A stretch of 64,000 nucleotides of DNA from an uncultured Candidatus Saccharibacteria bacterium (GTDB lineage Bacteria; Patescibacteriota; Minisyncoccia; Phycocordibacterales; Phycocordibacteraceae): assembly GCA_964357395.1 (NCBI GenBank), contig CAYHLC010000002.1:41033-105032 (forward strand). The letters run 5' to 3'. Each line of letters opens with the position of its first letter. Position 1 is the stretch's first letter. This document shows, one piece after another, positions 131-48,991 of the stretch. A model generated the notes under the pieces. The model saw only the letters and a program-made list of their open reading frames with translations, searched no databases and had not been told where the DNA came from. The position numbers were made by a program, and so were the translations under genes.

Positions 131-148
131 ACTGTTAGCTTATGATTA

Positions 149-174
149 TTATGATATTACATAATATCATAATA
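149..174. promoter_or_regulatory. AT-rich 26-bp motif TTATGATATTACATAATATCATAATA (inverted repeat ATGATAT-N6-ATATCAT) in the divergent intergenic region; 24/26 identical to 51650-51675
   Basis: Direct read. Contains the extended -10-like TGATATTAC and a near-duplicate elsewhere in the window. Confidence 0.4.
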
Positions 175-522: not shown

Positions 523-543
523 CAAGTGATACAATAGCTATAT

Positions 544-1509: not shown

Positions 1510-1523
1510 GGTACGATTCCTAG

Positions 1524-4913: not shown

Positions 4914-5969
4914 ATGGCAAAACTAACATTCAAACCCCAGGCAGTTAGCAAGCGTCTCGTACAGAATCTTCCGGAGCGATCGAGAGACGTCGTCGTGAGT
5001 CGTTACGGACTAGGAGACAAGAAGGGCGCAGAGACCTTGGATGCCATCGGCAAGCGATACGGCATTACTCGCGAGCGTGTACGCCAGATCGAGAGCCACG
5101 CTATCAAGGCTATCCAGGACTCGCCAGCGCTCGCCAAGGAAGCTGGCGCGCTACAGTCACTCGAGAGCGCTATTCGCGACATGGGCGCCGTACTTCCGGA
5201 GCACAGCATCCTCACCGAGTTTGCTACTGATCCTGAGACCAAGAATCATTTGTATTTCCTCATGGTTGTTGGCAAGCCGTTCATTTCGAGGAAGGAGGAC
5301 GACAACTTCAAGACGCGTTGGTACGTCGATGAGTCAGTCGCCAAGGCAGTCGAGGATGCACTAAAGACGGTACACCAGAGTATCAAGCCGAACGATGTGG
5401 TGACTGAAGACAAGCTGGTTGATCACGTACTCTCGTGCCTCTCTCGCGTCAACGTTAAGTACAAGAACAAGGACACCGCACGCCGCTGGCTCGACCTCTC
5501 AAACTGCCTGATGCGCAACCCGCTTGGAGAGTGGGGCCGCTCGGGCGCACCAGGTATCAAGCTCAAGAACATTCGTGATCATGCGTACCTCGCTCTCAAG
5601 CGCCACGGTTCCCCAATGCACTTCCGTGAGGTAGCCAAGGAGATCGACAAGCTTTTCGGCAAACGCGCGCACCAGGCGACGACGCACAACGAGCTGATTA
5701 AGGACAAGCGCTTTGTGTTGGTAGGTCGCGGTATCTATGCCCTCTCTGAGTGGGGCTACCGCCCGGGTGCAGTTATCGACATCATCAAGCATGTCTTGAA
5801 GGAGAAGGGTCCGCTGACTCGAGATGAACTGATCAAGGCCGTTGGTAACGAACGTCACGTTAAGCTCAACACCATCATAGTTAACTTGCAGAGCCCGGCG
5901 CTCTCGAAGACCAAGGACGGCAAGTACGCACTCGCGAAATTGTTCCAAGTTCTGAGTCCAGAGTTCTGA
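4914..5969 (+). CDS. DNA-binding protein with an N-terminal sigma-70 region-4-like HTH and a C-terminal HARE-HTH (RpoE-delta-like) winged helix
   Basis: N-terminus LPERSRDVVVSRYGLGDKKGAETLDAIGKRYGITRERVRQIESHAIKAI resembles sigma70_r4. C-terminus KDKRFVLVGRGIYALSEWGY resembles the HARE-HTH signature. Confidence 0.55.
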   Translation: MAKLTFKPQAVSKRLVQNLPERSRDVVVSRYGLGDKKGAETLDAIGKRYGITRERVRQIESHAIKAIQDSPALAKEAGALQSLESAIRDMGAVLPEHSILTEFATDPETKNHLYFLMVVGKPFISRKEDDNFKTRWYVDESVAKAVEDALKTVHQSIKPNDVVTEDKLVDHVLSCLSRVNVKYKNKDTARRWLDLSNCLMRNPLGEWGRSGAPGIKLKNIRDHAYLALKRHGSPMHFREVAKEIDKLFGKRAHQATTHNELIKDKRFVLVGRGIYALSEWGYRPGAVIDIIKHVLKEKGPLTRDELIKAVGNERHVKLNTIIVNLQSPALSKTKDGKYALAKLFQVLSPEF

Positions 5970-9643: not shown

Positions 9644-10471
9644 ATGACGGAAATAGTGAAGGGCGATGGATCCCGAGAGCTCTTCAATATTCACAAACTT
9701 GCAGACTCATTGGCCCGCTCTGGCGCCAACAAGGACCTCGCGATCCGTGTGTCCGAGCAGATTGCCTCGTCGATACAAGACGGCATGTCGACAACCGAGA
9801 TATACAGAAACGCATACAAGATCCTGCACAAAGAGGAGCGCATTGCTGCAGCCCGGTACTCCATGCGCCGCGCTATATTGGAACTCGGCCCGACTGGATA
9901 TCCGTTCGAGGACTATGTGTCGGAGCTGATGAGGGCGAAGGGGTACGAAGTCCGCACCCGCGTCATGGTTCCTGGTAGATGCATCGAGCACGAGGTGGAC
10001 GTCGTGATGACCAAGGACGGCAAGACTATCGGCGCGGAACTCAAGTTCCATAACCAACCTGGATTTAAGACGGATGTGAAGATTGCCCTGTATGTCAAAG
10101 CTCGGTTCGACGATATCGACCAAGCGGTACGCGAGACGCACAAGGAGCGCGAGATCCACGAGGGATGGCTGATCACCAACACCAAATTTACTGACCACGC
10201 TATCCGCTACGCAAGCTGCGGGGGCATCAACCTGCTTGGGTGGGACTACCCAAACAAAGGGAACCTCGACGATCTCATCCGCGAGACTGGCGTGTACCCG
10301 ATCACCGTGCTCACCTCATTAACTGGCGCGGAGAAGAATAGACTCCTCGCAAGCCAGGTTCCACTCTGCAGCATGGTGGCAGAGAATCCAGCACTCCTCA
10401 GGAATGCTGGTGTTCCAGATAAGAAAGTGGCAGGAGTGATAGCCGAGTCTACAGCGCTCTGTAAAGTCTAG
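9644..10471 (+). CDS. ATP-cone domain fused to an Mrr-type (PD-(D/E)XK) restriction-endonuclease catalytic domain
   Basis: Residues 1-90 IVKGDGSRELFNIHKL..RYSMRRAILE fit the ATP-cone. FEDYVSELMRAKGYEV..EHEVDVV..ELKF..GWLITNTKFTDHAIRYAS..INLLGWD fits the Mrr_cat core. Confidence 0.7.
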   Translation: MTEIVKGDGSRELFNIHKLADSLARSGANKDLAIRVSEQIASSIQDGMSTTEIYRNAYKILHKEERIAAARYSMRRAILELGPTGYPFEDYVSELMRAKGYEVRTRVMVPGRCIEHEVDVVMTKDGKTIGAELKFHNQPGFKTDVKIALYVKARFDDIDQAVRETHKEREIHEGWLITNTKFTDHAIRYASCGGINLLGWDYPNKGNLDDLIRETGVYPITVLTSLTGAEKNRLLASQVPLCSMVAENPALLRNAGVPDKKVAGVIAESTALCKV

Positions 10472-12059: not shown

Positions 12060-12165
12060 TACGAGCTGCTGCCAATACGCCTCAGCAACTCCAAGTACTT
12101 TGTAGAGCACAAGGACCGGGTCTTTGCCCTCGCCGACGATCTTTAATAGACTTTGCTTAAAAACA

Positions 12166-12193
12166 CATCATATATGATGCATCATATATGAGT
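12166..12193. promoter_or_regulatory. Tandem 14-bp palindrome CATCATATATGATG x2 (second copy 12/14), an operator-like site upstream of the ogt-like gene
   Basis: Direct read. Near-identical to the 32-bp perfect palindrome at 25831-25862 and shares flanks (AAAAC..palindrome..TTGATTGGCAGCG). Confidence 0.5.
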
Positions 12194-12224
12194 TGATTGG
12201 CAGCGAGAGTGGTAATGGTAAACT

Positions 12225-12503
12225 GTGAACATGATAAAGCGGAACTTGTTTCGGGAGAAAGTGATACAGATTGTAAGGGGAATCAGGAAAGGTAAGGTGA
12301 TGACATACAAGGAGGTCGCGGCGCGGGCCGGGCACCCCGGCGCTGCGCGAGCAGTGGGTGCCATCATGCGAGTAAATAAGGACAAGAGCATGCCCTGCCA
12401 CCGCGTCATCCGCTCTGACGGCACTCCCGGCGGCTACAATGGATTGCAGGGCACAAAGAGCAAGCGTGTGCTGCTCCTTAAGGAAGGTGTGCGCCTAAAA
12501 TGA
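12225..12503 (+). CDS. ogt: Methylated-DNA-protein-cysteine methyltransferase (Ogt/MGMT) DNA-binding/active-site domain protein
   Basis: Active-site motif PCHRVI and HTH region TYKEVAARAG. GTG at 12225 or ATG at 12231. Confidence 0.8.
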   Translation: MNMIKRNLFREKVIQIVRGIRKGKVMTYKEVAARAGHPGAARAVGAIMRVNKDKSMPCHRVIRSDGTPGGYNGLQGTKSKRVLLLKEGVRLK

Positions 12504-13129
12504 AATCAAAGAAGACCAAGAATCCGGTCCACGAACTTCTGCGGAATCGGTGGAGTCCTCGTTCGTTTTCGAGTGAGGATATTACTGACACCGAGCTCGC
12601 GACCATACTCGAGGCGGCTGCCTGTGCGCCAAGCGCCTTTAACAAGCAGCCGTGGCAGTATCTCTATGCGCGTCGGGGCACGCAGACTTTTGAAAAAATG
12701 CTTTCCTGCATAGCACCGATGAATGCTACGTGGGCCAAGAACGCCGCAGTCCTCATGTTCGGAGTGCTCACTAAGGATTTTGATGGCGGCCGGACTAACT
12801 TATGGGCCGAGCATGATATGGGAGCAGCGGAGATGTCGATGTATGTGCAAGCAACTGCGCTTGGCATCTATGGCCACACAATTGCTGGCTACTGGCATGA
12901 CCCACGCAATACGGTAGATGACTATCCAGGTTCAGTCGGTTTTGATAAGGAGGAAGCAAAGAAACTATTTGTAATACCAAAGGGTTACGAGCCTTATGAC
13001 TTCCTAGCTTTCGGCAGACTTGGCGCCCCAGAATTGTTACCTGCTGAGTATCAGGAAGCTGAGCGCGCAGACAAACCAATAGCTGCAATCGAGACCTTTG
13101 CCTTTAAGGACGAGTTTCCTAAAGCTTAA
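12500..13129 (+). CDS. Nitroreductase family protein
   Basis: Nitroreductase N-terminal motif RRSxRxF..AP..SA.N.QPW (WSPRSFSS..LEAAACAPSAFNKQPWQY). Confidence 0.85.
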   Translation: MKSKKTKNPVHELLRNRWSPRSFSSEDITDTELATILEAAACAPSAFNKQPWQYLYARRGTQTFEKMLSCIAPMNATWAKNAAVLMFGVLTKDFDGGRTNLWAEHDMGAAEMSMYVQATALGIYGHTIAGYWHDPRNTVDDYPGSVGFDKEEAKKLFVIPKGYEPYDFLAFGRLGAPELLPAEYQEAERADKPIAAIETFAFKDEFPKA

Positions 13130-25577: not shown

Positions 25578-25811
25578 ATGGCAGAGGCACCACAGTGGGC
25601 GAATGATGCAGCAGCAGTACTGGCGCTCGCCGGCACGCTTGGGGTTATAGACGCTGGCTACGCGCTCATTAATGATGTTCAGAGCACCTATGAACTGGCC
25701 TTCGGTCTTGCGCCTGGCAGGCTGTCTATTGCAGAAGGCCTAGTAGGGCTCGCGATGCTCTGTGGGGCCTTCTGGTTCGTCCTCAAGTACGAAGACAAAC
25801 CACGACAGTAG
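25578..25811 (+). CDS. Small membrane protein
   Basis: 77-aa ORF with two hydrophobic helices. Confidence 0.3.
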   Translation: MAEAPQWANDAAAVLALAGTLGVIDAGYALINDVQSTYELAFGLAPGRLSIAEGLVGLAMLCGAFWFVLKYEDKPRQ

Positions 25812-25830
25812 CTAGTCGTTTCCTCAAAAC

Positions 25831-25862
25831 CATATCATATATGATGCATCATATATGATATG
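25831..25862. promoter_or_regulatory. Perfect 32-bp palindrome CATATCATATATGATGCATCATATATGATATG (two tandem 14-bp palindromes CATCATATATGATG), an operator-like site upstream of the small-ORF/grpE-dnaK-dnaJ region
   Basis: Direct read. Followed by a TTGACT-17-TATCTT promoter candidate at 25892-25920. No CIRCE sequence is present. Confidence 0.55.
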
Positions 25863-26288
25863 AATTTGGTCAGCGTTCGGTTTGTAACGCTTTGACTTTG
25901 GACTAAAGTAGGCGTATCTTGCAAACAATGGCAAATCTAGATCGAGGAGTCGTAGAGGGTCTGTCGCGTGGCGCTGAGGAGGCAGCCGCTCGCCATGAAA
26001 CTGCATCAGGCCTTATGAAGTGGGTATACAGATCATCCGCTGTTGGACTCAGCCTCACACTCTTTTGCGCGATCTTCGCAGCGGCAAACGGATAGTGTAG
26101 TATGCCGGCATGCAAGAAGGTGCAATACAGGAGTCAGTGCCGAGCGAGGGTGACGAGGAGCTGAGGAAGTGCTCAACCTGCGGCAAGGATACCTGGCAGG
26201 TGTATGTGCAAGGTAAATGGGTTTGCTTCCAGAGAGCCTAGCCCAAACATTGGCGGATAGGCAGAATAGTTTTATACTGACAGATACT

Positions 26289-26792
26289 ATGACAGACGAT
26301 GTTGATGATGTTGTATTAGAGGACGATGATGGCGGGGGGCATACGGGGACCCCAGAGCAGAAGCTGAAGACCTTGCGAGATAAGTTGCGAAAGGCCGAGC
26401 ATGAGGCGGGGGAGAACCTTGCTGGGTGGCAACGCGCCAAGGCAGACTATGTCAACTTACAGAAGCGTCTCCGCGAGACCGAGAGCGCGGTAGGGCAGGC
26501 CGGCGCAGCGGCAGCACTGCGCGAGTTAGTACCACTCTTCGACTCACTAGAGGCAGGCGGGCAAGAGGTGCTTCTGAAGCAGCTCGACACGACGTTATTG
26601 AGACTCGGAGCCACACGCTACCGGCCTGAAAGCGGAGAGGTATTCGATCCTGTTCGTGAGGAGGCGATGTCGGTAGTTGCGCCGGAAGCGAAAGAGGAGG
26701 ATAATACTATTCACTCCGTCCTGCAATCTGGGTATAGCATCGGAACACTCATTATTAGGCCAGCTCGCGTAACCGTATATCATCAGTCATAA
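26289..26792 (+). CDS. grpE: Nucleotide exchange factor GrpE
   Basis: Coiled-coil region, then GrpE C-terminal region [12 protein letters not shown]...[34 protein letters not shown]. Start is uncertain: ATG at 26289 chosen (acidic N-terminus); the track ORF starts at 26217 but overlaps an upstream small ORF. Confidence 0.8.
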
Positions 26793-26797
26793 ATCCT

Positions 26798-28642
26798 ATG
26801 GGAAAAATTTTGGGAATCGACCTTGGAACTACTAACTCAGCCGCCGCAATAATTGAGGGTGGTGAGCCGCGCATCATCGAGAACTCGGAGGGCAACCGTA
26901 CGACCCCATCGGTCGTCGCGATCTCCAAGACCGGAGAGCGCCTTGTCGGCCTTGTTGCCAAGCGCCAGGCAGTCACGAACCCAACGAACACGGTGTACGG
27001 CATCAAGCGCTTCATGGGCCACAAGTTCTCTGACCCTGCAGTCCAGAAGGACAAGGGGATAGTCCCCTACATCATTAGCGCTGCGAGTAACAGTGGCGTG
27101 CAGGTTAAGCTGGGTGATAAGGAGTACAGCCCCGAGGAGATCTCCGCCATGATCTTGCAAAAGCTGAAGGGCGACGCGGAGGCCAAGCTCGGCGAGCCGA
27201 TAACGGAGGCCATCATTACCGTTCCGGCATACTTCGATGACGCGCAGCGTCAGGCGACCAAGGACGCAGGCAAGATCGCTGGCCTCGACGTAAAGCGTAT
27301 TATCAACGAGCCAACGGCAGCAGCGCTCGCATACGGATTTAACAAGCGGAAGAACGAGCAGATAGTAGTCTATGACTTTGGAGGAGGGACCTTCGACATC
27401 TCCGTACTCGAGGTTGGGGATGATGTGATCGAGGTCAAGGCGACTGGGGGCGATAGCCACATGGGCGGCAGAGACATCGACCAAAAGATCGTCCGCTGGG
27501 TTGCTAACGAGTTTAAGAAGGAGAGCGGACTTGATGTCACTAACGACCCACTCGCCCTGCAGCGCCTCGACGAGGCCGCAGAGAAAGCGAAGCACGAGCT
27601 CTCGACCACAATGGAGACGGAGATCAACATCCCGTTCATCACCTCTGACTCGTCTGGCCCGCGGCATCTCCTCCTGAAGCTCACACGCGCAACGCTCGAG
27701 GAGCTCTCGCGCGAGTATATCGATCGATCTATTGACATCACCAAGCAGGTCTTGGAGTCAGCCAAGATGCAGTCATCCGCTATCGAGGAGATAGTGATGG
27801 TTGGCGGCCAGACTCGCATGCCTGCTATCCAGGAAGCTGTTAAGAAGCTCTTCAACAAGGAGCCAAACCGTAGCATCAACCCGGACGAGGTAGTAGCAGC
27901 CGGCGCCGCTATCCAGGCAGGCATCTTGCAGGGCGACGTCAAAGACGTCTTACTCCTCGACGTCATCCCGCTCTCACTCGGTATCGAGACTATGGGTGGG
28001 GTTGCAACCAAGCTTATCGAGCGGAACACTACTATTCCGACATCCAAGTCTCAAGTCTTCTCTACCGCATCCGATAGTCAGACATCTGTAGAGATCCATA
28101 TCGTCCAAGGCGAGCGTGCAATGGCGAATGACAACAAGTCCCTTGGCCGCTTCCACCTCGACGGAATACCGCCAGCACCAAGAGGCATGCCACAGGTCGA
28201 GGTGTCGTTCGATGTCGACGCTAACGGAATCCTGAAGGTGACCGCCAAGGACAAGTCGACGAACAAAGAACAGACCATACGTATCGAGAGCCGCGGGGGC
28301 CTGAGTGATGCAGATATTGAGAAGATGAAGAGCGACGCGGCCGCACACGCCGACCAGGACCAAAAGGCAAAGGAGCTTATAGAGACCAGGAACATCGCAG
28401 ACTCCATGATCTATACCGCGGAAAAGTCGCTTTTGGATCATAAGGACAAGATCGCAGAGGATGTACGCACATCGGTGCAGGCTGCAATCGATGAGGTGAA
28501 GAGGGTGAAGGATAGTGGAGACACTGGAGGGATTAAGGAAGCAACGCAGCGCCTCTCAGCGGAGATGCAGAAGATAGGTCAAGCAATGCAGGGCCAACAG
28601 ACACCGCCGCAGGAAGGACAGCAAGACGCACCTCCTAATTAA
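26798..28642 (+). CDS. dnaK: Chaperone DnaK (Hsp70)
   Basis: [18 protein letters not shown] and the full Hsp70 architecture (614 aa). Confidence 0.97.
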
Positions 28643-29733
28643 TGGCTACCGACTACTATTCGATTCTGGGCGTTGACAAGAAAGCGTCGAAAGACGATAT
28701 CAAAAAGGCGTTTCGCAAGCTCGCGCACAAGTATCACCCCGACAAGTCGGGCGGCGACGAAAAGAAGTTTAAGGAAGCGAGCGAGGCGTACGCAGTCCTC
28801 TCGGATGACAAGAAGCGCGCTGAGTACGACTCGTACGGACGCGTCTTCGGCTCCGGTGGTGGAGGGGCGGGCGGCAATCCGTTTGATGGATTCGACTTCT
28901 CACAGTTTGGTGGCTTCGGCAACGGTCAAGGTGGCGGGTTCGAGGTCAACTTGGACGACTTGTTTGGTGGCTTCTCTGACATATTTGGTAGTGGAGGCAA
29001 GCGCAGCGGCCGGAGGGGTAGAGACATATCGATAGATATCGAGCTCTCGTTCAAGGAGTCTGTGTTCGGTGTCGAGCGCCATGTCCTCCTCACCAAGGAC
29101 AGTAGCTGCAGCCGCTGCTCGGGGAATGGTGCCGAGCCGGGTTCGAAGACCAAGACCTGTCCAACCTGTAACGGCAAGGGACAGATAGTCGAGAGCCAGC
29201 GCTCTCCGTTTGGGACCTTCTCGGTTGCAAAGACTTGCACCACTTGCCACGGCAAGAAGACGGTACCCGAAACTGTGTGTACCAAGTGTCGTGGTGCTGG
29301 TGTCGAGCGGAAGGAGGAGGAGATCGTGATAGCAGTGCCACCAGGAATAGATAACGGGCAGGTGATCCGCATGACCGAGATGGGTGAGGCTATTAGTGGC
29401 GGGAAGTCGGGGGACCTCTATATCAAGGTGCATGTTTCTGCGGACTCCAAGTTCCGCAAAGAGGGCTTCAACATCGTTACCGATCTATCTATCAAAGTCA
29501 CTGATGCATTGATGGGGGCGGACTATACACTCGATACGCTAGACGGACCGGTCACTGTGACTGTGCCGCCGCTCCGCGCCACAGACGAGATCTTGCGCGT
29601 CAAGGGCAAGGGCGTGCCGATGGATGGCGGGAAGCGTGGCGACCTCCTCATCCGCGTCAAGCTCGAGTTCCCACACAAACTCTCGCGCGATGCACAGGAA
29701 CTCCTGAGGCAGCTGAAGCAGGAAGGCATATGA
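28642..29733 (+). CDS. dnaJ: Chaperone DnaJ
   Basis: J-domain with HPD (KYHPDK), a G/F-rich region, and a CxxCxGxG zinc finger x4. Confidence 0.95.
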
Positions 29734-34640: not shown

Positions 34641-36269
34641 ATGCTTTTTGTTGGAATCACCCTTACCGGCTGGGTCGCCATCATCATGGCACTCTCCTTA
34701 AGTATTCTCTCGGGCATAATGTTTATGCTCGGCACAAAAAAGCTACACTATTTGTGGGGTGCGTTTACAGCAACCGGAGCAGTATGGGGTATTGGATTTT
34801 ATATGGTTTCGGTCGCTGGTGATTACGAAAGTGCACAATTTTGGTGGCGCTTTGCTCTAATTGGCGTTATTTGTGCGCCATTTACTTTTTTTCATTTCGT
34901 CACAGAGTTTATTCATTTGCAGTTATCTCGAAGCACTCGAATACTTGTATTCGGGCTGTTTTACTCGGTGTGTGCCGTATTTGTAACTTTGGCACTTACA
35001 ACAAACTTGCTCGTAAACGAGCTTACTTTCTTATTCGGTGAAGTCTACTACGATACGCCTCCGGCAGCACTGCATCCATTCTTTACACTGCTTTACGTCT
35101 CTATAATCTCATTTTCTTACTTGTTGATTTTTAAGTCACTCTATTTTGGCTCCTTGCCTGCGGCAGAGCGCAGGCAGGCATGGTATCTTATTGCCGGTTC
35201 CGGTATCGGGCTTATGGGTGGGAGTATGGATTTGCTGCTGATCTACGACGTACTGTATGTGCATCCAATTAGAAATTTGCTGGTTATAGTCGGTACTGCA
35301 ATCGTGGGCTTTTCAATCCTAAAGTATAGACTGTTTGATGTGAAAGTGGTCACTGCCCAGTTCCTCACTTTTTTCATTGTTGCATTTTCAATAATCAGGC
35401 TTGCGACCTCTGCATCCTCGCAGGAGATAATTTTTAACACTTTGATGCTTGGGGTTACTGTTGCTGTAGGAGTCTACCTCATCCGAAGCGTACGCAGAGA
35501 AGTGGAGCAGCGCGATGAGATTCAGGGCCTGTATGTGCAGCTTGAAGAGAAGAATAAAAAGCTCGTAGAGCTGGATAAGCTGAAGTCCCAGTTCCTCTCT
35601 ATTGCAACGCACGAGCTTCGTACGCCGCTCACCATTGTGCGCAACTTCATTGCCCTAATGCAGGACGGCAGCTACGGCAAGGTGCCGGAGGCAATGGCGG
35701 AGGCAGGGCGGCAGGTCTTTGACCGCGTCACCGACATGGCCAAGTCGGTGGACACGTACCTCAACGTCTCACGCATCGAGCAAGGCAAGATCACCTATGA
35801 CTTTGCCGACGCCAACCTTAGCACCCTTGTTGTCGAGGGTGTCGCTGGTATGCAAGAGGGGGCTAAGAAGCGCGATCTTGCCCTAACACTCAAAGTGGTG
35901 CAGGGTAGCGAGAAGTTGATGGCCAAGCTGGACGCACCGAAGATCAATGAGGTGATCAACAACTTGATCGATAACTCGCTCAAGTACACCCCCAAAGGCT
36001 CGGTGACTCTCACGTTGGAGAAGGTAGGGAAGATTGCCCGCCTCACAATTGTAGACACAGGTGTTGGTATGACCCAAAAGACGATGGACGGACTCTTCCA
36101 ACTCTTTAGTCCTGGCGAGGACTCGAAGAAGCTTAACCCTGCGTCAACTGGCGTCGGTCTCTACATCACCAAGGCGCACGTCGAGGCCCACAAGGGCACT
36201 CTCACCGCCCACTCCGATGGCAAAGGAAAAGGGAGCAAGTTTGTGCTAGATATGCCTCTTGCACTCTGA
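34641..36269 (+). CDS. Sensor histidine kinase with an N-terminal ~7-TM sensor region (no adjacent response regulator)
   Basis: H-box SIATHELRTPLT, N-box LIDNSLKYT, G1 box TIVDTGVGM, and about 7 hydrophobic helices in the N-terminal 330 aa. Confidence 0.85.
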   Translation: MLFVGITLTGWVAIIMALSLSILSGIMFMLGTKKLHYLWGAFTATGAVWGIGFYMVSVAGDYESAQFWWRFALIGVICAPFTFFHFVTEFIHLQLSRSTRILVFGLFYSVCAVFVTLALTTNLLVNELTFLFGEVYYDTPPAALHPFFTLLYVSIISFSYLLIFKSLYFGSLPAAERRQAWYLIAGSGIGLMGGSMDLLLIYDVLYVHPIRNLLVIVGTAIVGFSILKYRLFDVKVVTAQFLTFFIVAFSIIRLATSASSQEIIFNTLMLGVTVAVGVYLIRSVRREVEQRDEIQGLYVQLEEKNKKLVELDKLKSQFLSIATHELRTPLTIVRNFIALMQDGSYGKVPEAMAEAGRQVFDRVTDMAKSVDTYLNVSRIEQGKITYDFADANLSTLVVEGVAGMQEGAKKRDLALTLKVVQGSEKLMAKLDAPKINEVINNLIDNSLKYTPKGSVTLTLEKVGKIARLTIVDTGVGMTQKTMDGLFQLFSPGEDSKKLNPASTGVGLYITKAHVEAHKGTLTAHSDGKGKGSKFVLDMPLAL

Positions 36270-36797: not shown

Positions 36798-36932
36798 ATG
36801 CGAGTATTTCAACTAACTAGAAAGAACGGTACCCGCACCATTTCTGCATTTCCTCACAAGGGCACCCTTACTGCCCACTCCGATGGCAAGGACAAAGGCT
36901 CCCAATTCGTACTCGAACTACCGCTTCTTTAG
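36798..36932 (+). pseudogene. Remnant duplicate of the histidine-kinase 3' end (HKGTLTAHSDGKDKGSQFVLELPLL*)
   Basis: 36855-36932 encodes 25 aa about 80% identical to the last 26 aa of the HK at 36190-36269. A possible 44-aa ORF from the ATG at 36798. Confidence 0.45.
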
Positions 36933-37712
36933 GGTTGGATTACTCTTTGTAGTATTAATATCAAGTCTCGTCGCCTCCTCAAAGGCGAGATCAAACACTT
37001 TTTTCATAGCATCTGCGATTGCAGCATTCTCAATATGAATTGCCACCAAGTCCTTATGCAGCATAAATCCGACTGTGTCGTCAAAGATTGCGAAATCTGA
37101 ATTGAACGCCCAGCGCTCGGGCGGGATAAGTTTGATCTGGTCAAGCGGTGCATAGTGCTTGCGTATGTAGTCTCCTTGCTCCGAAAAGGGATGGATGCCA
37201 TACATCGCGATACCTAACTCCGTACGTCTTTGCACATATTTTGGCAAATAATCGGGCAGACTTCGCTGTATATCATCGGCTGATGAAACTACGCGCATGA
37301 CTTTATCGCGTACTCGCAAGGTCTCCTCAAACGATTGGATCAGACCGGCCTTACCCTCAAGAATTCTAACTCTTGGTTTTTGTTTGGTATCTCTGTGCAG
37401 AGATTTTAGATCGGGGAGTAGGTCGTTAATGCTGCGTTCGATTTTTGCCTGCTTCTCAGCAGCGTCCGCTGCTCTTTCTACCAACATGTCTGGCGATGAG
37501 GCAACGTACTGCTTGGTCGTCTCGCCGACAGACACACTTGCCAAGCCTTTTTCGCGCAGAGATTCAAGAACCACATAGGCAGAGCTTCGATTGAGCTCCG
37601 CCTTGCTTGCCACCTCGTGTGCTGTCGCAACCTCAAGCTCTAGGAGCGCAAGGTACGCCCGTGCCTCCTTGTCTGAGAGGCCAAACTTGGTCAGTGCAGC
37701 TAGGGGTTTCAT
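36918..37712 (-). CDS. TrmB-family transcriptional regulator
   Basis: N-terminal HTH FGLSDKEARAYLALLELEVATAHEVASKAELNRSSAYVVLESLREKGL typical of TrmB, and a C-terminal TrmB-like regulatory domain. Confidence 0.65.
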   Translation of the reverse strand: MKPLAALTKFGLSDKEARAYLALLELEVATAHEVASKAELNRSSAYVVLESLREKGLASVSVGETTKQYVASSPDMLVERAADAAEKQAKIERSINDLLPDLKSLHRDTKQKPRVRILEGKAGLIQSFEETLRVRDKVMRVVSSADDIQRSLPDYLPKYVQRRTELGIAMYGIHPFSEQGDYIRKHYAPLDQIKLIPPERWAFNSDFAIFDDTVGFMLHKDLVAIHIENAAIADAMKKVFDLAFEEATRLDINTTKSNPTLKKR

Positions 37713-39819: not shown

Positions 39820-39903
39820 TTGCAATCGCTTGTTCTCGAGACGGTTTACTACGGCGCTCTCCTCCGTCGTCATGGGATGTAATATTTGCATGAATTCATA
39901 TGA

Positions 39904-39932
39904 TTGACAACAAGTACCAGATTTGCATAACT
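39904..39932 (+). promoter_or_regulatory. Promoter candidate TTGACA-17-ATAACT upstream of the RHS gene, flanked by repeated ATTTGCAT motifs
   Basis: Direct read: TTGACA at 39904-39909 and ATAACT at 39927-39932. ATTTGCAT occurs at about 39885 and 39921. Confidence 0.4.
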
Positions 39933-39968
39933 GTAGGCATGAATGGGCTTTGGGGTCTACCCGGTCCT

Positions 39969-42900
39969 ATGCGCATCGTTTCGTTTGCGCTTCTCATTTT
40001 CTTTGCGTTGCCGATTACGCTTTATGCGGCGTTTGGTGATGGCGCTCCAACGATCTTTAACCCAGACGTATTTACCGATACGTCATCTCAACTTCGCGTC
40101 GATGGGTCTACTGGGGCGTTTACTCAGCGAGTTTCGATTGCTATTCCACCGGGGCGGAGTAGCCTGCAGCCGGACCTGGCGCTCGACTATAATAGTCAGC
40201 GCGCGGAGGACAGCATAGTTGGGTACGGTTGGTCGCTCTCGATCCCATATATCCAACGCTTCGCCCCAACAGGCTCGCAGGACTTGTACTCGGGCAATGC
40301 GCGCTTCATCTCTTCGATGGATGGTGAGCTGGTAGCAGTTACTGCACCAACAGTTACACACCGTGCCAGAGTTGATACCGGCGCGTATAACGCCTATACC
40401 TATTTGAACAATACGTGGGTGGTGTATGACAAAAAGGGTACCAAGTATACCTTCGGCTCCGCAGACAGTGGACGGCAGTACGATACTGCTACTACCTCGA
40501 CCCGGACGTACAAGTGGACGTTGCAGGAGATTCGGGACACCAACAATAACTACATTACCTATACCTACTCGAAGAGTGGTAACGAGATCTACCCGGCTAC
40601 CGTTACATATACCGGTAACAATGTTACCGAGGGACCCTTCACCGTCAACTTTGCGACTAGCACCAGGCCAGACGTGCGCGAGAGCTACAAGCCAGGCTTC
40701 AAAGTCACCACGAACTATCGGATTTCGGAGATAACCGCCTCGATCTCGGGCTCAGTAGTCAACCGCTATACACTCGCATACGGGACAGGCTCTAACAACA
40801 AGCGCTCGCTGCTTACCTCTGTGCAGCGCCAGGGCTATGCCGAGGACGCGTCGTCGGTGACGCTCCCTGCCATGACCTTTACCTACGCCAGCTCCTCGTC
40901 GATGTTCTATGCCCCAAGCGGAGGCGGGTACCAACTGCAACAGGCGTACCTAGCCGCTGATGCAAACGGCAACGGCATACTTGATGTCAACTATTTCAAC
41001 AACAATAATAACGGTACGGGGAACCATGGTGAGATTTACGCGGACCAAGCTACGAGTGTACAAAATCTAGTGCCACCAGAGTTCTGGGGCTATTTCGGTA
41101 CCCCACAGGAACGCGGTACTCGTTTTCTTGATGTGAATGGTGATGGCAAGGCTGACATTGTACGTGGTCTTAAGGACGACGCACAGAGCACAACAACATC
41201 GAGCCTCTATACCAACGCTGGCGGATACAGTTGGGCGGCGTCGTCAACGTTCAATGGGGTTATCCCAGCATTTGGATACTACGACCCGTCATCATACGCC
41301 TTCACCACCGGCATTTTCGGGGAGGTAAATGGTGATGGACTGCCGGACTATGCGATGCATTTCCCAAACACGGCAACAGAAACGTATCTGGGCAACGGCT
41401 CTGCATGGACTGCAACTTCCACTATATTTGCCCCACTATACGCCTTCCCATTCTCTGCGCCGACTGAACGTGCATCACAGCTGGTAGATGTTAATGCTGA
41501 TGGCCTCGATGATTGGGTGTATTCGGATGGCTCAAGCACGCTGGTGCGTCTCAATAACGGTACCGGGTGGGACGCTGCTGCAAGCAGCCAGTGGACTGTT
41601 GCCACCTCGACCCTCTATGCTATTGGCGGCGGATACCACGACCGCGGTATACGGTTTATGGACCTAAACGGCGACGGTCTGCAAGACTACGTGCGCTCAT
41701 ACGGAGCTGCGTGTACGCAGAGCACATTGGTAGAGGCGACTACTACCCAGCAGGTGTTGCTCAATACTGGCAATGGCTGGGCTACCTCGACCGCATACAC
41801 GCTTCCTGCAGCTGTCACCTACGCTCAGGGAAGTGGTGGTACGTGCAATGGTGGCTTTTCATACAGCGAATATGCAAATTGGACTGGGAACGGGCAGATG
41901 CTGCAGGACGTGATCACGAGTGTTACCTCGTCGCAAGGCGCGACCAAGACTATTACCTACACACCATCAGCGCAGCTCGGTACTAACCCCGATCTGCCAG
42001 TGTCGCTCCTCGTGGTCACGCAGATTGTTGAGAATGACGGCTTTAGTACCTCTGGTACTACGTCGTATGCGTATCAGGGTGGCAAGATCTACTTGGACGG
42101 GGGAGTGGCGGATAGGAAGTTTGCTGGCTTTGCAATCTCCACAGTCACCGCGCCCGACGCAATCACTACTACGTATTACAACCAGGGGGATGGTATCAAC
42201 ACTGCACTCGGCGAGCAAAGCGACGGCTTCGGTCAGATCAACCGACCATTCCGCAAGGACGTGCTGGACCTCAGCGAGACCCTGGTACAGCGCATGTACT
42301 ACCGATCCGACACCAATACCGCCTCGAGCAGCATATTTGTTGGTACTGGACGCGAGATGACGTTTGATTACGGTACGGGAGGGTCACACCGTGATAGGGC
42401 CTCTGAGTACGTGTATGCGACCACAAGTCGTGACGTAATAAGCATGACCGAGTATGGTCAGGTCACCGGCTCCGCAGACGGCACCTTTAGCGATACTGGC
42501 ACTGACAAGAGGACGGCAGTATTTGCATACACCGCAAGCAGTACAGCTGTCAGTCTACCGAGGACTAAAACATTGTTTGATAATGCTGGCGCGACCACCA
42601 CTGACGAACGTTATTACTACGACGGCCTGGCGCTTGGCAGTGCTACCAAGGGTAATAGAACGAAAGTGGAGCGACTCAAATCAGGATCGACCTATGTCAG
42701 TGACCAGCTCGCCTTTAATACATACGGCCTGGTCGCGTCTACAACTGATCCGCGGGGTAATATCACCACACTAACCTACGACGCACGTAACCTGTATGTT
42801 GCAACCAGTACCAACCCACTGTCGCATCAGACCCAGTTCTATTACGACTACACACTTGGCAAGCCGAAGCAGACGATAGATCCGAACACTCGTGTATTTG

Positions 42901-45900
42901 AGACCACGTATGATGGCCTAGACCGACCACTGTTAGAAAAGCAGCCGGACATCGCAAGTCCCGGTAGTCTTGCTAGCAAAAAAGCCTATACATACACCGA
43001 CACTGTTGGCTCGCGGAAGGTTGTGGAGACCAACTACCTAGATAGTTCAACTGACTTTATAGTACATACCTACCTTGATGGGCTGGACAAGGTGCTCCAG
43101 ACCCGCAAGGAAGCTGAGGCGACTGACGAGTTTGTAGTCAGGGACTTTGCGTATAACCCTACAACAGGTCTACTAAAGCAAGAGTCCTTGCCATACTTCG
43201 GGACCGGTTCGGCTCGGGCGAGTGCCACCACCAACCTGCCATACCTCGCTCGGTATACCTACGATCCGCTAAAGCGCATACTGACACTCGCAAACGCGGT
43301 GGGTACTACCACCAGCTCATACAATCAGGCAACGACAACTATTACAGACGTGCTCGGGAACTCTAAGGACTTTGGCTATGACGCATATGGCCGTCTTTCA
43401 GAAGTAATAGAGCGAGAAGATAGTAACAGCTACACCACCAAGTATCAGTATGATGCACCGGGTAACCTAACCCGGGTTACAGACGCGGATCAGAGCATAC
43501 GCAACTTTACCTACGACTCACTCGGTCGACGCCTTACCGCACAGGACCTGCATGATGCGGGCGACGGCACCTTCGGCACATGGACGTACGTGTACGATAC
43601 TGCATCTAACCTCGCTTCCACTACCGATCCGAAGGGTCAATTGGTCAACTACTCATACGACAGCCTCAACCGCGTGCTAACAGAGGACTATACCGGTCTT
43701 GCAGGTACCGAGGTGCAGTATGCATACGACACCTGTGCCGAGGGTAAGCCGCGCCTCTGCACGGCAACATCAACTGGCGCTGTCACCAAGTTTACCTACA
43801 ATGCACTTGGACTCCCCGCAACCGAAAGCAAGGCTATTGGAATTGCGAGTTATGTAACGAGCTACAGCTACAACCGCCTCGGTGGCCTGGCTGGCATTGT
43901 GTATCCAGACAGCTCGGAGGTGCAATACACCTACAACACCGCAGGCCTTTTGGAGAGCGTGGCGCAAAAGGAGTCCGGCGGGGCATTTGCCGATGTAGTA
44001 AATGGTATCCAGTACGCACCGACCGAAAAAGCTACCTTCAAAAACTTTGCAAACGGGGTGCAGAGCACCTATACGTTTGATGCAAACGAGCTATACCGCC
44101 TCCGCTCGATAGTGACCGGCGTGCCTCAGGGCGAGGGACTCATGGGTGGGGGAGGCGAACTCGGATTTGCTAACAATCCGTGGCAGAGCCTCGCACTTGC
44201 GCTCGAGGAACTGCCGTGGGCGCTCCTCGACGGGCTCGACCTCCCTGAGGAGATCGTGGATGCCCTGGAGCCGGAAGCCGCCACGACGACCGAGCCAGTA
44301 GTCGAAGAAGTAGTGGAGGAAGTCGCCACCACCACGGAACCGCTCCCGGAGCCTGAAATTGCAACGACCACCGAGCCAATACTCGAGGAAGTGCTAATGG
44401 AGGAGGCTACCTCAACTGAGCCGACGATAGTTGAGGAGCTTGTGTTTGATGAAATCAGCACAACTACACCAGAAACGATTCTTGAAGAGGTACTGAAGCC
44501 TGTAAGTATACGAGCACTGCTCACTGACAAATCGAGCGCAGAGAAAGCCACGATCAAGGGTGCGGAGATTGCAAAGGTGGGACAGATAGCGCGCACCGTT
44601 CGGGCTAACCATGACCTCGAGGTGGTATCGCTAGAGCCCATCGAGGGAGGGGTGCAGGTATTTGCACGAGCGTGGAGCAAGGAGGGTGAGCAAATAGGGT
44701 TTGGTGCTGACGGCACTGTTGATATCGAGCGCTTCCGCATCTACAACCCGCCAATCCTCGTACCCGACGAAGCGGGAGATATAGTCCAGACGTACGTAGA
44801 CTTTGATGGCAAGGAACATGCCCGTACGCTGCGCGAGGACCCCGAGGAGGCACTGCTCCAGGTTATCGAGCAAGCGCTCCCTACGATGAAGAACAAGCAC
44901 TCGGCCGAGCGTATAGAGAAGGACAAGCAGGGGAACACGACGTCGATCTTCTACCCCGACCCTAGTCCCGAAGTGTCGAGCGTTGACGGATATTTGGGGT
45001 ACAACGAAACGAGCTGTGCAACTGGTGTTGCCTTCAGTACTGCTCAGTCTGCTGCCGATGCAACGGGTGGGAGCGATACTACTGTGTCAGCCGCAGCGAT
45101 ACGTTTGGAGCGATGTGGTGGCGGCAACGGTGGCTCAGCTTCGACGTTCCGTACTCTATTCAAAGCGTACTTCCTGTTCGACACTGCCCCAATCGTCTCA
45201 GGCTCAACTATCGACTCTGCAACCCTGTCGCTGTACGGGATAGATGTAGGAGCACTGAGCTCCGGCTGGCTGACAGCTGCTGAACGGTCCTTCTATATCG
45301 CATCATCCAGCCCAGCCTCAAACACTGCTGTTACTAACGCAGACTGGGATCAGGTTGGAACAACGACAGCGTTCTATACGAATGATTTCGGCGACGCCGG
45401 CGGTTCGTGGAATATCAGTGGGTACAACGACATGGCGCTGAACGCCTCTGGAAAGGCAGCCATCAATGAGAGCGGTGTGACTACGTTAGCGACAATGACT
45501 GGTGCGCAGTTCCTTAATGACGAGCCGGCAGCGACGGCTGGAGCGATATACCAACTGACGTCATACCAGGCCGATGAGACAGGGACTACGCAAGACCCCA
45601 AGCTCACTGTCGAGACGAGTGCGGGCGGCGGCGGAGGGAGTCCGGATTTGCAAAACCTCACCTACACCTACGACGCAGTGGGGAATATAACACTTTTGCA
45701 AGACGCCTCCGACACCGACACCATCCACACCACCGTGTTCGGATACGACGACCTGTACCGACTCACCACCGCATCCACCACCGCGGCAAGCTCCACCCCG
45801 TTCAGCCACGTGTACACGTACGACAAGCTCGGCAACCTGACCTCCAAGACTGGCAGTGGCTCATACACATACGCAGAGACCGGGTACGCCAACCCTCACG

Positions 45901-48102: not shown

Positions 48103-48273
48103 ACCTTTGGAGATAAGTATCTCACTCCATTCCTATATGGTTATCGAGCAACGCGGGAAGAGAAGAGAAATGGTAACAGCAAGAACTGCCGATTTGGATA
48201 TTGAACTCTCACCAATGTGGGATGCATATCAGGGGAAACGGTGTCAGGTACCGTTTCGTGATACACTTGCCCT

Positions 48274-48948
48274 ATGGGCCGTCCTCCACGCATAGATCTG
48301 GGCAACTACCTATACCACATCATCAATCGCGCTAACAGTCGCCAGACTATATTCCGCACCACTAAGGACTATCAACATTTCGAGACACTCCTAGAGGAGG
48401 CGCAGAAAAAGTTCGACATGCGGATTGTTGCGTATACAATCATGCCGAACCACTGGCACCTCTTCCTATACCCTAAGGAGGAGGGTGACCTCTCCTCTTT
48501 CATGCAGTGGCTCACCTTAACCCACACGCAGCAGTATCATGCCAAGACACGGACCATAGGGTACGGCCACATCTATCAGGGAAGATACAAATCATTTATC
48601 GTAGAGAAGGATCCGTACTTCCTCACACTGCTCAAGTACATAGAGCGTAACCCTGTGCGTGCAAAGCTCGCAAACAGAGTCGAAGACTGGCACTGGGGGA
48701 GTGGATACCGAAGGATGTCTGGTACAGAGAAGGAACAGCAGCTTCTCTCTGAATCACCGGTCCATCTTCCAAAGAACTATCGTACCTGGGTTAATACTTC
48801 TGAATCTAAGAAGGAACTCGAATCAGTACGTGCCTCTGTCAACAAGGGGACTCCTCTTGGTACTATGGACTGGACCAGGCGGATGGTTGACCGCTTTGGA
48901 CTTGAACTTACTACGCGGAGTCCAGGAAGACCAAAGAATGGTACCTGA
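48274..48948 (+). CDS. tnpA: IS200/IS605-family Y1 (HUH) transposase, RAYT-like (REP-associated tyrosine transposase-like)
   Basis: HuH motif PNHWHLFL and catalytic-Tyr region IYQGRYKSF. N-terminus YHIINRANSRQTIF is typical of Y1_Tnp. Confidence 0.8.
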   Translation: MGRPPRIDLGNYLYHIINRANSRQTIFRTTKDYQHFETLLEEAQKKFDMRIVAYTIMPNHWHLFLYPKEEGDLSSFMQWLTLTHTQQYHAKTRTIGYGHIYQGRYKSFIVEKDPYFLTLLKYIERNPVRAKLANRVEDWHWGSGYRRMSGTEKEQQLLSESPVHLPKNYRTWVNTSESKKELESVRASVNKGTPLGTMDWTRRMVDRFGLELTTRSPGRPKNGT

Positions 48949-48991
48949 CACCATTTCCCCATTTCCATTTCCAAATGATATAATGTATTCT

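What the first reader, a model, noticed from the sequence alone, without database searches (positions are those of the whole stretch)
25831..25862. Perfect 32-bp palindrome (tandem CATCATATATGATG) upstream of the grpE-dnaK-dnaJ region where a CIRCE element would be expected
Seen in sequence: CATATCATATATGATGCATCATATATGATATG is a perfect 32-bp palindrome made of two abutting 14-bp palindromes, about 30 nt upstream of a TTGACT-17-TATCTT promoter candidate. It precedes two tiny ORFs and grpE-dnaK-dnaJ. No CIRCE (TTAGCACTC-N9-GAGTGCTAA) or HAIR sequence is present. Established knowledge: heat-shock operons are usually controlled by HrcA/CIRCE or HspR/HAIR. Inference: a different operator, possibly bound by a dimer of dimers, controls chaperone expression here. 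A near-copy with conserved flanks sits upstream of the ogt/nitroreductase pair.
Basis: partly seen in the sequence, partly recalled or inferred. Interest (0 to 1): 0.55.

Follow-up and report, generated by a model that had tools for sequence, protein, structure and literature searches.

The report
Stray antitoxin-type operator palindrome, not heat-shock
The perfect 32-base palindrome is real, but it matches almost exactly the DNA element found just before the antitoxin gene of one toxin-antitoxin family in unrelated bacteria; here two stand-alone copies sit in a Patescibacteria genome, and nothing ties them to control of the grpE-dnaK-dnaJ chaperone genes.

Summary
Observation confirmed. Window 25831-25862 is a perfect 32-bp palindrome made of two ATCATATATGAT units 14 bp apart. 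A near-copy lies at 12164-12195, upstream of an MGMT-domain gene and a nitroreductase gene. About 58 nt are shared, flanks included.

The heat-shock reading is not supported:
- grpE has its own promoter-like site (26250-26278) 11 nt before its ATG.
- The palindrome lies about 390 bp further upstream, beyond two small ORFs.
- Three relatives with the same gene order (GrpE 63-75% identical) lack the motif in the DNA held.

The same sequence (31 of 32 bases) occurs in a GC-rich metagenome contig, between a Gp49/HigB-like toxin gene and an XRE-HTH (HigA-like) antitoxin gene. Six further sequence-distinct homologous modules (antitoxin 55-93% identical) carry drifting versions at the same place. In six of the seven modules two units sit 14 bp apart; in several they lie inside a TTGACN-17-CATCAT promoter-like site. 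The units are kept while the long hairpin decays, which points to protein binding.

Best reading (about 0.5): two orphan HigA/XRE-type operator copies, bound by a regulator encoded outside this window. No such gene is in the 64 kb, so the function here is inferred. Rivals are inert relics or small repeats, and an RNA hairpin. Moderate interest.

The parts
25831..25862 (.). Site B: perfect 32-bp palindrome made of two ATCATATATGAT units (25834-25845 and 25848-25859) 14 bp apart.
12164..12195 (.). Site A: the copy aligned to site B. It holds a 24-bp perfect palindrome at 12168-12191 and units at 12167-12178 and 12181-12192 (the second unit has one mismatch).
   Evidence: (D8)
25819..25875 (+). 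Extended repeat at site B: the palindrome plus flanks shared with site A (TTTCCTCAAAACC on the left, TGAATTTGGTCAGCG on the right).
   Evidence: (D8, 45 nt at 87%)
12152..12205 (+). Extended repeat at site A. Its left flank, CTTAAAAACAC, aligns with the TTGACACCAC -35 region of the toxin-antitoxin loci.
12197..12224 (+). Promoter-like site TTGGCA-16-TGnTAAACT. Its -35 hexamer starts 5 nt after the last unit of site A, and the ATG follows 7 nt after the -10.
12231..13129 (+). Genes downstream of site A: a 90-aa protein with only the MGMT DNA-binding domain (12231-12503; the active-site-like PCHR motif is read directly from the translation) and a nitroreductase (12500-13129).
25578..25811 (+). 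77-aa hydrophobic ORF with no Pfam hit. Its stop codon lies 19 nt before site B.
25872..25891 (+). Terminator-like hairpin (AGCGTT...AACGCT, then a T-rich tail) between site B and the next promoter.
25892..25920 (+). Promoter-like site TTGACT-17-TATCTT; the ATG at 25928 follows 7 nt after the -10.
25928..26241 (+). Two small ORFs after site B: a 55-aa ORF with a hydrophobic C-terminus (25928-26095; called as a gene in L004) and a 43-aa CxxC ORF (26110-26241; not called in L004). Neither has a Pfam hit.
26250..26278 (+). grpE's own promoter-like site, TTGGCG-17-TATACT, 10 nt before the ATG at 26289.
   Evidence: relatives
26289..29733 (+). grpE (26289-26792), dnaK (26798-28642) and dnaJ (28642-29733). 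They are neighbours of site B; control by site B is not shown.

Best explanation
The palindrome is a tandem pair of 12-14-bp dyad units (ATCATATATGAT, 14 bp from start to start). This is the element that sits in the toxin-antitoxin spacer of one subfamily of reverse-order higBA-like modules, which have a Gp49/HigB-like toxin gene first and an XRE-HTH HigA-like antitoxin gene second. In those modules the element sits in the short toxin-antitoxin spacer; where a promoter-like site was found or can be read (L152 and L005 by scan; L148 and L149 by eye), the units fill its spacer and -10 (TTGACN-17-CATCAT), the -35 overlaps the toxin stop codon, and a GAGG ribosome site and the antitoxin ATG follow. 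That layout suggests two antitoxin dimers repressing the antitoxin promoter. The window holds two stand-alone copies, A and B, which share about 58 nt including flanks, so they have a common origin. In both copies the position of the -35 has decayed to TTAAAA or TCAAAA.

My inference is that both copies are bound by a HigA-like XRE protein encoded elsewhere in this Patescibacteria genome. At site A the units end 5 nt before the -35 of the promoter-like site for the MGMT and nitroreductase genes, so binding would most simply block RNA polymerase. At site B the units lie about 75-90 bp upstream of the small-ORF start, so any effect there is unclear. The grpE-dnaK-dnaJ genes are read from their own promoter and are not the target.

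Shown: the sequence identity, the position of the element in the toxin-antitoxin loci, and the absence of a cognate gene from the window. Inferred: protein binding, both in the toxin-antitoxin loci and here, and any regulatory effect.
For: An exact 22-mer scan of metagenomes found only three loci. One is the same species as the window (L006). One looks like chance (L007). The third is L005, a 65% GC contig whose site matches site B at 31 of 32 bases. That site lies 14 nt before an XRE-HTH ORF and just after the true stop codon of a Gp49-like toxin gene.

Antitoxin homologues 55-95% identical were fetched from other samples. All that were read carry the motif in the same spacer. L151-L154 and L155 have two ATCATATTTGAT units. 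L148, L149 and L156 have more diverged units. L160 (Myxococcales) has a single ATATCACATATGATAT. Where two units are present they are 14 bp apart, and no unit occurs elsewhere in those loci.

The scanner finds TTGACA-17-CATCAT (10 of 12) in L152 and TTGACG-17-CATCAT in L005, both facing the antitoxin gene. Units stay at 9-12 of 12 matches to ATCATATATGAT, while long-hairpin pairing falls to 10-14 of 16 through non-compensatory changes. In L151 and L155 both units carry the same A-to-T change, so they are direct rather than inverted copies. That is how a protein site behaves, not an RNA or DNA hairpin.

The recognition region of the antitoxin (SPSIVSRLENGADVRLSTLQKY) is nearly invariant. The closest solved relatives are the M. 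tuberculosis antitoxins HigA3 (6LTY, E 4e-11) and HigA2. HigA3 binds its own promoter DNA, and Gp49-type higBA modules are reverse operons autorepressed by the antitoxin (PMC7340258, PMC5906591). The window sites align with the toxin-antitoxin spacers from the -35 position through both units. Site A abuts a promoter-like -35.
Against: No Gp49 or XRE gene lies in the 64-kb window (Pfam; tblastn; profile search, best E 0.11). I could not inspect the rest of the genome, so the cognate binder is hypothetical. No antitoxin homologue that carried a source name came from Patescibacteria, though most carry no name.

The two sites sit at different distances from the downstream promoter-like sites (5 nt and 29 nt before the -35). 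The conserved flanks point to duplication of a segment rather than independent selection of binding sites. Binding of the antitoxin to this motif has not been shown experimentally for any member; it rests on position and conservation. One other candidate-phyla genome (a MAG labelled Saccharibacteria) has at least 6 copies of a 40-bp palindrome built on the same decamer, and 4 of them lie between convergent genes where no promoter is expected. Long AT-rich palindromes in such genomes can therefore have non-operator roles.
Confidence: 0.5

Rival explanations
1. Inert relics or small dispersed repeats. A promoter-operator fragment from a horizontally acquired toxin-antitoxin cassette, or a REP-like mini-palindrome, was copied to two intergenic sites and has no cognate binder or regulatory role now.
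For: About 58 nt including non-palindromic flanks are shared between A and B, as expected from duplication. There is no cognate gene in the window. The -35 position is degraded relative to the toxin-antitoxin loci (not called as a promoter). The motif is absent from relatives. An IS200/RAYT-like Y1 transposase is present at 48274-48948. A multi-copy 40-bp palindrome on the same decamer exists in one Saccharibacteria-labelled MAG, mostly between convergent genes.
Against: Both copies keep perfect or near-perfect units (12/12 and 12/12 in B; 12/12 and 11/12 in A), while their flanks have diverged to about 70%. That argues for constraint or very recent copying. The inverted repeats flanking the Y1 transposase gene are an unrelated GC-rich sequence (I5, 73). 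Only two copies occur in 64 kb, and the metagenome scan found none beyond this species and L005.
Confidence: 0.22
2. An RNA or DNA hairpin acting at the 3' ends of the upstream genes, as a terminator or mRNA stabiliser between transcription units.
For: As RNA, site B folds at -18.9 kcal/mol (z = -4.7) and site A at -13.9 kcal/mol (z = -2.9). Site B starts 19 nt after the stop of the 77-aa ORF. Both sites lie between genes on the same strand. The Saccharibacteria-labelled palindromes sit mostly between convergent genes.
Against: The stem is all A-U apart from a few G-C pairs and has no U-tract, so the terminator scan does not call it. That scan instead calls a separate hairpin at 25872-25891. 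Site A lies about 100 nt after the upstream stop codon. In the toxin-antitoxin homologues the hairpin is not maintained, whereas the units are.
Confidence: 0.1
3. One reading: a new heat-shock operator that replaces CIRCE or HAIR and controls grpE-dnaK-dnaJ.
For: Site B is the nearest large palindrome upstream of the chaperone genes on the same strand. The window holds no CIRCE or HAIR. Read-through from the small-ORF promoter into grpE is not excluded.
Against: grpE has its own promoter-like site 11 nt before its ATG, and relatives show an equivalent box by eye. The palindrome is about 390 bp away, beyond a terminator-like hairpin and two ORFs. The motif is absent from relatives with the same gene order. 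The second copy precedes non-chaperone genes. The motif's clear relatives are toxin-antitoxin spacers.
Confidence: 0.06

Closest known systems
Operators of Gp49-type 'reverse' higBA toxin-antitoxin modules (A. baumannii higBA; M. tuberculosis higBA2 and higBA3, HigA3-DNA structure 6LTZ)
   Same: The homologous loci found here have a Gp49 (PF05973) toxin gene first and an XRE HTH_3 antitoxin gene second. The antitoxin profile hits M. tuberculosis HigA3 and HigA2. Antitoxin autorepression through promoter-overlapping palindromic DNA is established for this class (PMC5906591, PMC7340258). The motif in the window is the motif of these loci, 31 of 32 bases against L005.
   Different: In the window the motif is not next to any toxin or antitoxin gene. 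In the homologous loci the motif lies between the toxin and antitoxin genes, not upstream of the operon; none is seen in the 120-150 nt read upstream of the toxin genes, nor elsewhere in the loci held. The published HigA3 site (CCACGAGATATAACCTAGAG) is a different sequence. No paper in the library contains the 14-mer CATCATATATGATG.
Antitoxins acting on promoters outside their own operon (for example E. coli MqsA at rpoS/csgD and P. aeruginosa HigA at mvfR; from my own knowledge, not checked here)
   Same: Operator-like palindromes for an antitoxin located upstream of ordinary host genes, which is what sites A and B would be if they are functional.
   Different: In those cases the toxin-antitoxin module and the extra sites are in one known genome and binding was tested. 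Here the regulator has not been found and binding is untested.
CIRCE/HrcA and HAIR/HspR heat-shock operators
   Same: An inverted repeat upstream of grpE-dnaK-dnaJ on the same strand.
   Different: No sequence resemblance. The palindrome is not at the grpE promoter and is not conserved in relatives.
REP elements and RAYT (Y1) transposases
   Same: A short extragenic palindrome present in more than one copy, and a Y1 transposase gene in the window.
   Different: Only two copies are seen. The sequence is AT-rich rather than the GC-rich hairpin that flanks the transposase gene. The toxin-antitoxin homologues show unit conservation, not hairpin conservation.

Membership tests
HigA/XRE antitoxin operator of Gp49-type higBA modules | The sequence matches the family's repeated dyad unit and its spacing. 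| tested here: met
   Site B matches L005 at 31 of 32 bases. Units are ATCATATATGAT 14 bp apart in the window and in the toxin-antitoxin loci that carry two units.
HigA/XRE antitoxin operator of Gp49-type higBA modules | The element lies in the promoter region of, or next to, the cognate antitoxin gene. | tested here: not met
   No Gp49 or XRE homologue lies in the 64-kb window (Pfam). The nearest downstream genes encode an MGMT-domain protein and a 55-aa ORF.
HigA/XRE antitoxin operator of Gp49-type higBA modules | The element overlaps the core promoter (-35, spacer and -10). | tested here: inconclusive
   The toxin-antitoxin loci have TTGACN-17-CATCAT. The window sites keep the geometry, but the -35 position reads TTAAAA or TCAAAA and is not called by the scanner. 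Site A does abut another promoter-like -35.
HigA/XRE antitoxin operator of Gp49-type higBA modules | The antitoxin, or the toxin-antitoxin complex, binds the DNA. | not testable with these tools
   This needs EMSA, ITC or ChIP. It has not been shown for any member of this subfamily.
CIRCE (HrcA) / HAIR (HspR) heat-shock operator | Consensus TTAGCACTC-N9-GAGTGCTAA, or CTTGAGT-N7-ACTCAAG, at the chaperone promoter. | tested here: not met
   There are 0 CIRCE matches within 3 mismatches. The 2 HAIR-like matches are at chance level and lie elsewhere.
Any conserved chaperone operator | The motif is conserved upstream of grpE/dnaK in related genomes. | tested here: not met
   L001-L003 (GrpE 63-75% identical, same gene order) have no unit within 2 mismatches. 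The sample is only three relatives, and L001 holds only 281 nt upstream of grpE.
REP / RAYT-associated extragenic palindrome | Many copies per genome, and the same hairpin flanking the RAYT gene. | tested here: not met
   Two copies occur in 64 kb. The inverted repeats flanking the Y1 transposase (48232-48255 and 48937-48960) are unrelated to the palindrome. The genome-wide copy number is unknown.
Intrinsic terminator | A G+C-rich stem followed by a U-tract. | tested here: not met
   The scan calls neither site. The stem is A-U rich and no T-run follows.

The most novel reading that the evidence does not exclude
A HigA-type antitoxin, or a stand-alone descendant of one, was acquired horizontally by a Patescibacteria lineage together with its promoter-operator cassette and was then domesticated. 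Copies of the roughly 58-nt cassette were spread in front of host genes (alkylation repair with a nitroreductase, and small membrane proteins ahead of the chaperone operon). A toxin-antitoxin-derived repressor would then run a small stress regulon in a reduced genome that has very few regulators.
Probability: 0.15. Interest if true: 0.6.

Novelty: new member of a known kind. Interest (0 to 1): 0.35.

Why it matters
The result removes a tempting but unsupported claim of a new heat-shock regulator in the candidate phyla radiation. It replaces that claim with a concrete, testable link: the palindrome is the spacer element of a specific Gp49/XRE toxin-antitoxin subfamily whose operator has not been described. 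If a cognate XRE protein exists in this genome, sites A and B would be an example of antitoxin-type regulation reaching ordinary genes in an organism with very few regulators. They would also show an operator kept almost base-for-base across phyla. If no such protein exists, the sites are a clean example of promoter-operator debris left by horizontal transfer.

Tried and rejected
- **Exact 22-mer scans.** GTDB species genomes gave 0 hits and viral contigs gave 0 hits.
- **Degenerate scan** TCATATATGA-N0-12-TCATATATGA in genomes. My rough estimate of the chance expectation is about 10. The hits are heterogeneous: neighbours that look by eye like GntR, IclR and WYL-type regulators, an HTH-Fic gene, tandem repeats in Prevotella, and GGTCATATATGACC pairs in Desulfobacterales. 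None has the TGCA spacer. The decamer is a common building block and does not mark one family.
- **blastn of the site against plasmids and phages.** Only marginal hits.
- **tblastn of the antitoxin against plasmids.** No match at E 1e-8.
- **Literature.** No paper contains the 14-mer. A search on Patescibacteria LexA motifs returned two papers, which I did not read.
- **Search for toxin or antitoxin remnants beside sites A and B.** None found.
- **Extending beyond the window.** Looking up end-of-window proteins gained only about 1.8 kb.
- **Strain comparison at site A.** L006 differs at 3 of 1410 positions, too few to read constraint.
- **Ideas considered and dropped from the sequence alone:** LexA/SOS box, NrdR box, Fur/Zur box, ArgR boxes, dif/Xer or lox-like recombination site, telomere-resolvase site, and sequencing-linker artefact. 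The artefact is excluded because the sites were recovered in independent assemblies (site B in L004, site A in L006).

Full report
**1. The observation**

Window 25831-25862 reads CATATCATATATGATGCATCATATATGATATG, a perfect 32-bp palindrome. Its 16-nt arms compare with a longest arm of 6-9 nt in 30 shuffles of the window. The 14-mer CATCATATATGATG, with up to 2 mismatches, matches 5 times against 0.12 expected. Four of those matches are the two halves of two sites.

- Site B is the finding itself.
- Site A is at 12164-12195, with a 24-bp perfect palindrome at 12168-12191.

The fifth match (50968) and a single 12-mer unit at 8993 both lie inside coding sequence and look like chance.

A and B share more than the palindrome. 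Segment 12152-12196 matches 25819-25863 at 87% (D8). With one or two indels the similarity continues to a CAGCG on the right, about 58 nt in all.

Site B is base-for-base identical in a second NCBI assembly (L004). Site A is present in an independent Hainich groundwater contig (L006). The sequence is therefore real.

The host is a Patescibacteria-group MAG (GrpE cluster name) with about 54% G+C.

**2. Surroundings**

Site A lies about 100 nt after a SAM-methyltransferase gene. It ends 5 nt before a promoter-like TTGGCA-16-TGnTAAACT (12197-12224). The -10 of that site is 7 nt before the ATG of a 90-aa MGMT-domain protein, which is followed by a nitroreductase gene.

Site B starts 19 nt after the stop of a 77-aa hydrophobic ORF. 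The following features come after it, in order:

- a terminator-like hairpin (25872-25891);
- the promoter-like site TTGACT-17-TATCTT (25892-25920);
- a 55-aa ORF (ATG at 25928) and a 43-aa ORF;
- a further promoter-like site, TTGGCG-17-TATACT (26250-26278), 10 nt before the grpE ATG at 26289;
- grpE, dnaK and dnaJ.

There is no CIRCE or HAIR in the window.

**3. Is it the chaperone operator?**

Three relatives with GrpE 63-75% identical were fetched (L001-L003). L002 and L003 show the same order: rpsI, small ORFs, grpE-dnaK-dnaJ. L001 holds only 281 nt upstream of grpE. By eye, each has a -10-like box 7-11 nt before the grpE ATG; no promoter scan was run on them.

None carries a unit within 2 mismatches anywhere in the 3-10 kb held. 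The small ORFs between rpsI and grpE also differ from genome to genome.

So grpE appears to have its own conserved proximal promoter. The palindrome belongs to a variable insert about 390 bp upstream.

**4. Where else the sequence occurs**

The exact 22-mer core is absent from GTDB species genomes and viral contigs. In metagenomes it occurs three times:

- L006 is the same species as the window.
- L007 is an AT-rich contig that looks eukaryotic. The match is probably chance.
- L005 is a 65% G+C contig.

L005 matches site B at 31 of 32 bases. On the coding strand its site lies 14 nt before the ATG of a 97-aa XRE-HTH protein. It lies immediately after a Gp49-like toxin gene, which is frameshifted in this contig. 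The toxin's true TGA stop sits inside a TTGACG hexamer.

**5. The toxin-antitoxin family**

Eighteen homologues of the L005 antitoxin were found at E of 1e-5 or below. A profile search found at least 1,897 more distant ones. Ten loci with antitoxins 55-93% identical were fetched. L150 duplicates L149, and L152-L154 match L151 in the spacer. In every locus read, the gene before the antitoxin is Gp49 (PF05973) or a remnant of it.

| Locus | Antitoxin identity to L005 | Spacer between toxin stop and antitoxin ATG |
|---|---|---|
| L005 | 100% | CAATATCATATATGATGCATCATATATGATATGAGGCAGGTGCAGC |
| L151-L154 | 93% | CACCACATCATATTTGATGCATCATATTTGATATGAGAGGTGCCGC |
| L155 | 86% | CACCATATCATATTTGATATATCATATTTGATATGGAGATGACGC |
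| L148 | 83% | ...TTGATATCATATGTGCTACATCATATTTGATACGGAGG... |
| L149, L156 | 73-78% | more diverged, with extra material |
| L160 (Myxococcales MAG) | 55% | a single ATATCACATATGATAT |

Where two units are present they are 14 bp apart, as in the window. No other unit occurs in those loci. No unit is seen in the 120-150 nt read upstream of the toxin genes either.

The promoter scanner finds TTGACA-17-CATCAT (10 of 12) in L152 and TTGACG-17-CATCAT in L005, both facing the antitoxin gene. Unit 1 fills the spacer and unit 2 covers the -10 and the likely start point. That is the textbook layout for autorepression.

Across the loci each unit stays at 9-12 of 12 matches to ATCATATATGAT. Pairing of the 32-nt hairpin falls to 10-14 of 16 through non-compensatory changes. 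In L151 and L155 both units carry the same A-to-T change, which makes them direct rather than inverted copies. That is the behaviour of a protein-binding site, not of a selected hairpin.

The antitoxin's helix-turn-helix region is almost invariant. Its closest solved relatives are M. tuberculosis HigA3 (6LTY, E 4e-11) and HigA2 (7EWC). Established background: Gp49-type higBA modules are reverse operons whose HTH antitoxin represses transcription by binding promoter DNA (PMC5906591, PMC7340258). An extra antitoxin promoter has been predicted for A. baumannii higBA2, though it was not confirmed there.

**6. How the window sites relate to the family**

Aligned with the toxin-antitoxin spacers, sites A and B match from the position of the -35 through both units. 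Site A (CTTAAAAACACATCAT...) resembles the L151 type (CTTGACACCACATCAT...). Site B (...CCATATCAT...GATATGA) resembles the L005 and L155 types. At the -35 position both window sites have TTAAAA or TCAAAA, and the scanner does not call a promoter there.

No Gp49 or XRE homologue, intact or decayed, lies anywhere in the 64 kb:

- tblastn with seven toxins and antitoxins;
- a profile search of all six-frame ORFs, best E 0.11;
- Pfam on about 60 ORFs.

The DNA-binding proteins that are present are a TrmB-family regulator (36918-37712), a sigma70_r4 plus HARE-HTH protein (4914-5969) and ScpB. I have no reason to link any of them to the motif.

**7. Interpretation**

It is well supported (about 0.8) that the palindrome is the same element as the toxin-antitoxin spacer motif of this higBA-like subfamily, either by descent or by a shared binding protein. 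That it works here as a binding site for an XRE/HigA-like protein encoded outside the window is an inference (overall about 0.5). If it does, repression at site A by blocking the adjacent -35 is the simplest mechanism. At site B, 75-90 bp upstream of the small-ORF start, the effect is unclear.

Rivals:

- Inert relics, or a small dispersed repeat left by horizontal transfer (about 0.22). The shared flanks and the missing regulator favour this. The intact units argue against it.
- An RNA hairpin at 3' ends (about 0.1). The fold energies are -18.9 and -13.9 kcal/mol, but there is no U-tract and the hairpin is not conserved in the homologues.
- The heat-shock operator (about 0.06).

One caution. 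A single MAG labelled Saccharibacteria has at least 6 copies of the 40-bp palindrome TTTAGTCATATATGATGCGATCGCATCATATATGACTAAA. Four of the six lie between convergent genes. AT-rich palindromes built on this decamer can therefore behave like REP or terminator elements in other candidate-phyla genomes. Also, the decamer in tandem is common across bacteria, next to many unrelated regulator genes.

**8. Novelty and verdict**

The element is a new member of a known kind, the tandem palindromic XRE/HigA antitoxin operator. Two features are of moderate interest. The operator is kept nearly base-for-base between a Patescibacteria genome and GC-rich bacteria. And here it stands alone in front of ordinary genes.

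The limits are plain.

Noticed in passing
window 147-174 and 51648-51675: A second AT-rich palindrome family (TATTATGATATTACATAATATCATAATA, and TGTTATGATATAACATAATATCAAAATA, about 90% alike). The second copy sits in a TTGTTA-17-AAAATA arrangement 7 nt before the ATG (51683) of a NUDIX gene. It looks like a promoter with an embedded operator, although the promoter scanner does not call it.
   Followed up: partly
window 48232-48960: An IS200/RAYT-like Y1 transposase ORF (48274-48948; PF01797, E 9e-20) is flanked by 24-nt inverted repeats at 48232-48255 and 48937-48960 (92% complementary). Their sequence is unrelated to the palindrome under study.
   Followed up: partly
window 12219-12231, 25915-25928, 26273-26289; L001-L003 upstream of grpE: The -10-like boxes sit only 7-11 nt before the start codons, and no Shine-Dalgarno sequence is obvious. 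This suggests leaderless or near-leaderless mRNAs are common in this lineage.
   Followed up: no
window 1934-4843: The leucyl-tRNA synthetase ORF (969 aa) has a NUDIX domain hit at residues 435-539 (29.4 bits, cut-off 21.1), apparently an inserted domain. The window also holds five separate NUDIX genes (starting at 1524, 29730, 49396, 49833 and 51683).
   Followed up: no
window 46453-46623 and 49222-49392: A 171-nt direct repeat at 83% identity. One copy lies inside the 3' part of a 2561-aa ORF (39900-47585); the other lies between the Y1 transposase gene and a NUDIX gene.
   Followed up: no
window 36189-36260 and 36855-36926: The 3' end of the histidine-kinase gene is duplicated (75% identity) about 600 bp downstream, next to a TrmB-family regulator gene on the opposite strand.
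   Followed up: no
window 4914-5969 and 9644-10471: Two unusual domain combinations: sigma-70 region 4 with a HARE-HTH domain (351 aa), and an ATP-cone with an Mrr-type restriction-endonuclease domain (275 aa).
   Followed up: no
L043:1012-1041, L067:6987-7016, L102:3366-3395, L108:379-408 and 1977-2006, L115:2768-2797: One MAG labelled Candidatus Saccharibacteria (CAZAUC01) carries at least 6 copies of the perfect 40-bp palindrome TTTAGTCATATATGATGCGATCGCATCATATATGACTAAA. Four of the six lie between convergent genes, which resembles a REP element or a bidirectional terminator.
   Followed up: partly
L088:1553-1600: In a Candidatus Uhrbacteria MAG, a tandem TCATATATGA pair overlaps the start of a gene (516-1571, minus strand) that, read by eye, has an N-terminal HTH-like region and a Fic motif. 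This is another probable self-regulated operator built on the same decamer but paired with a different protein family.
   Followed up: partly
L005:581-892 (minus strand); L160:2332-2439: The Gp49 toxin gene next to the best-matching site is frameshifted in L005, and in the Myxococcales locus only a 35-aa remnant is left, while the antitoxin genes stay intact. Antitoxins can evidently outlive their toxins in this family.
   Followed up: partly
L015, L021, L058, L071, L093, L100 and other Desulfobacterales loci: There is a recurrent pair GGTCATATATGACC-N3/4-GGTCATATATGACC in many Desulfobacterales MAGs. In five of them (L015, L071, L100, L105, L120) the flanking ORFs are related to one another by BLAST. 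It is probably a separate operator family.
   Followed up: no
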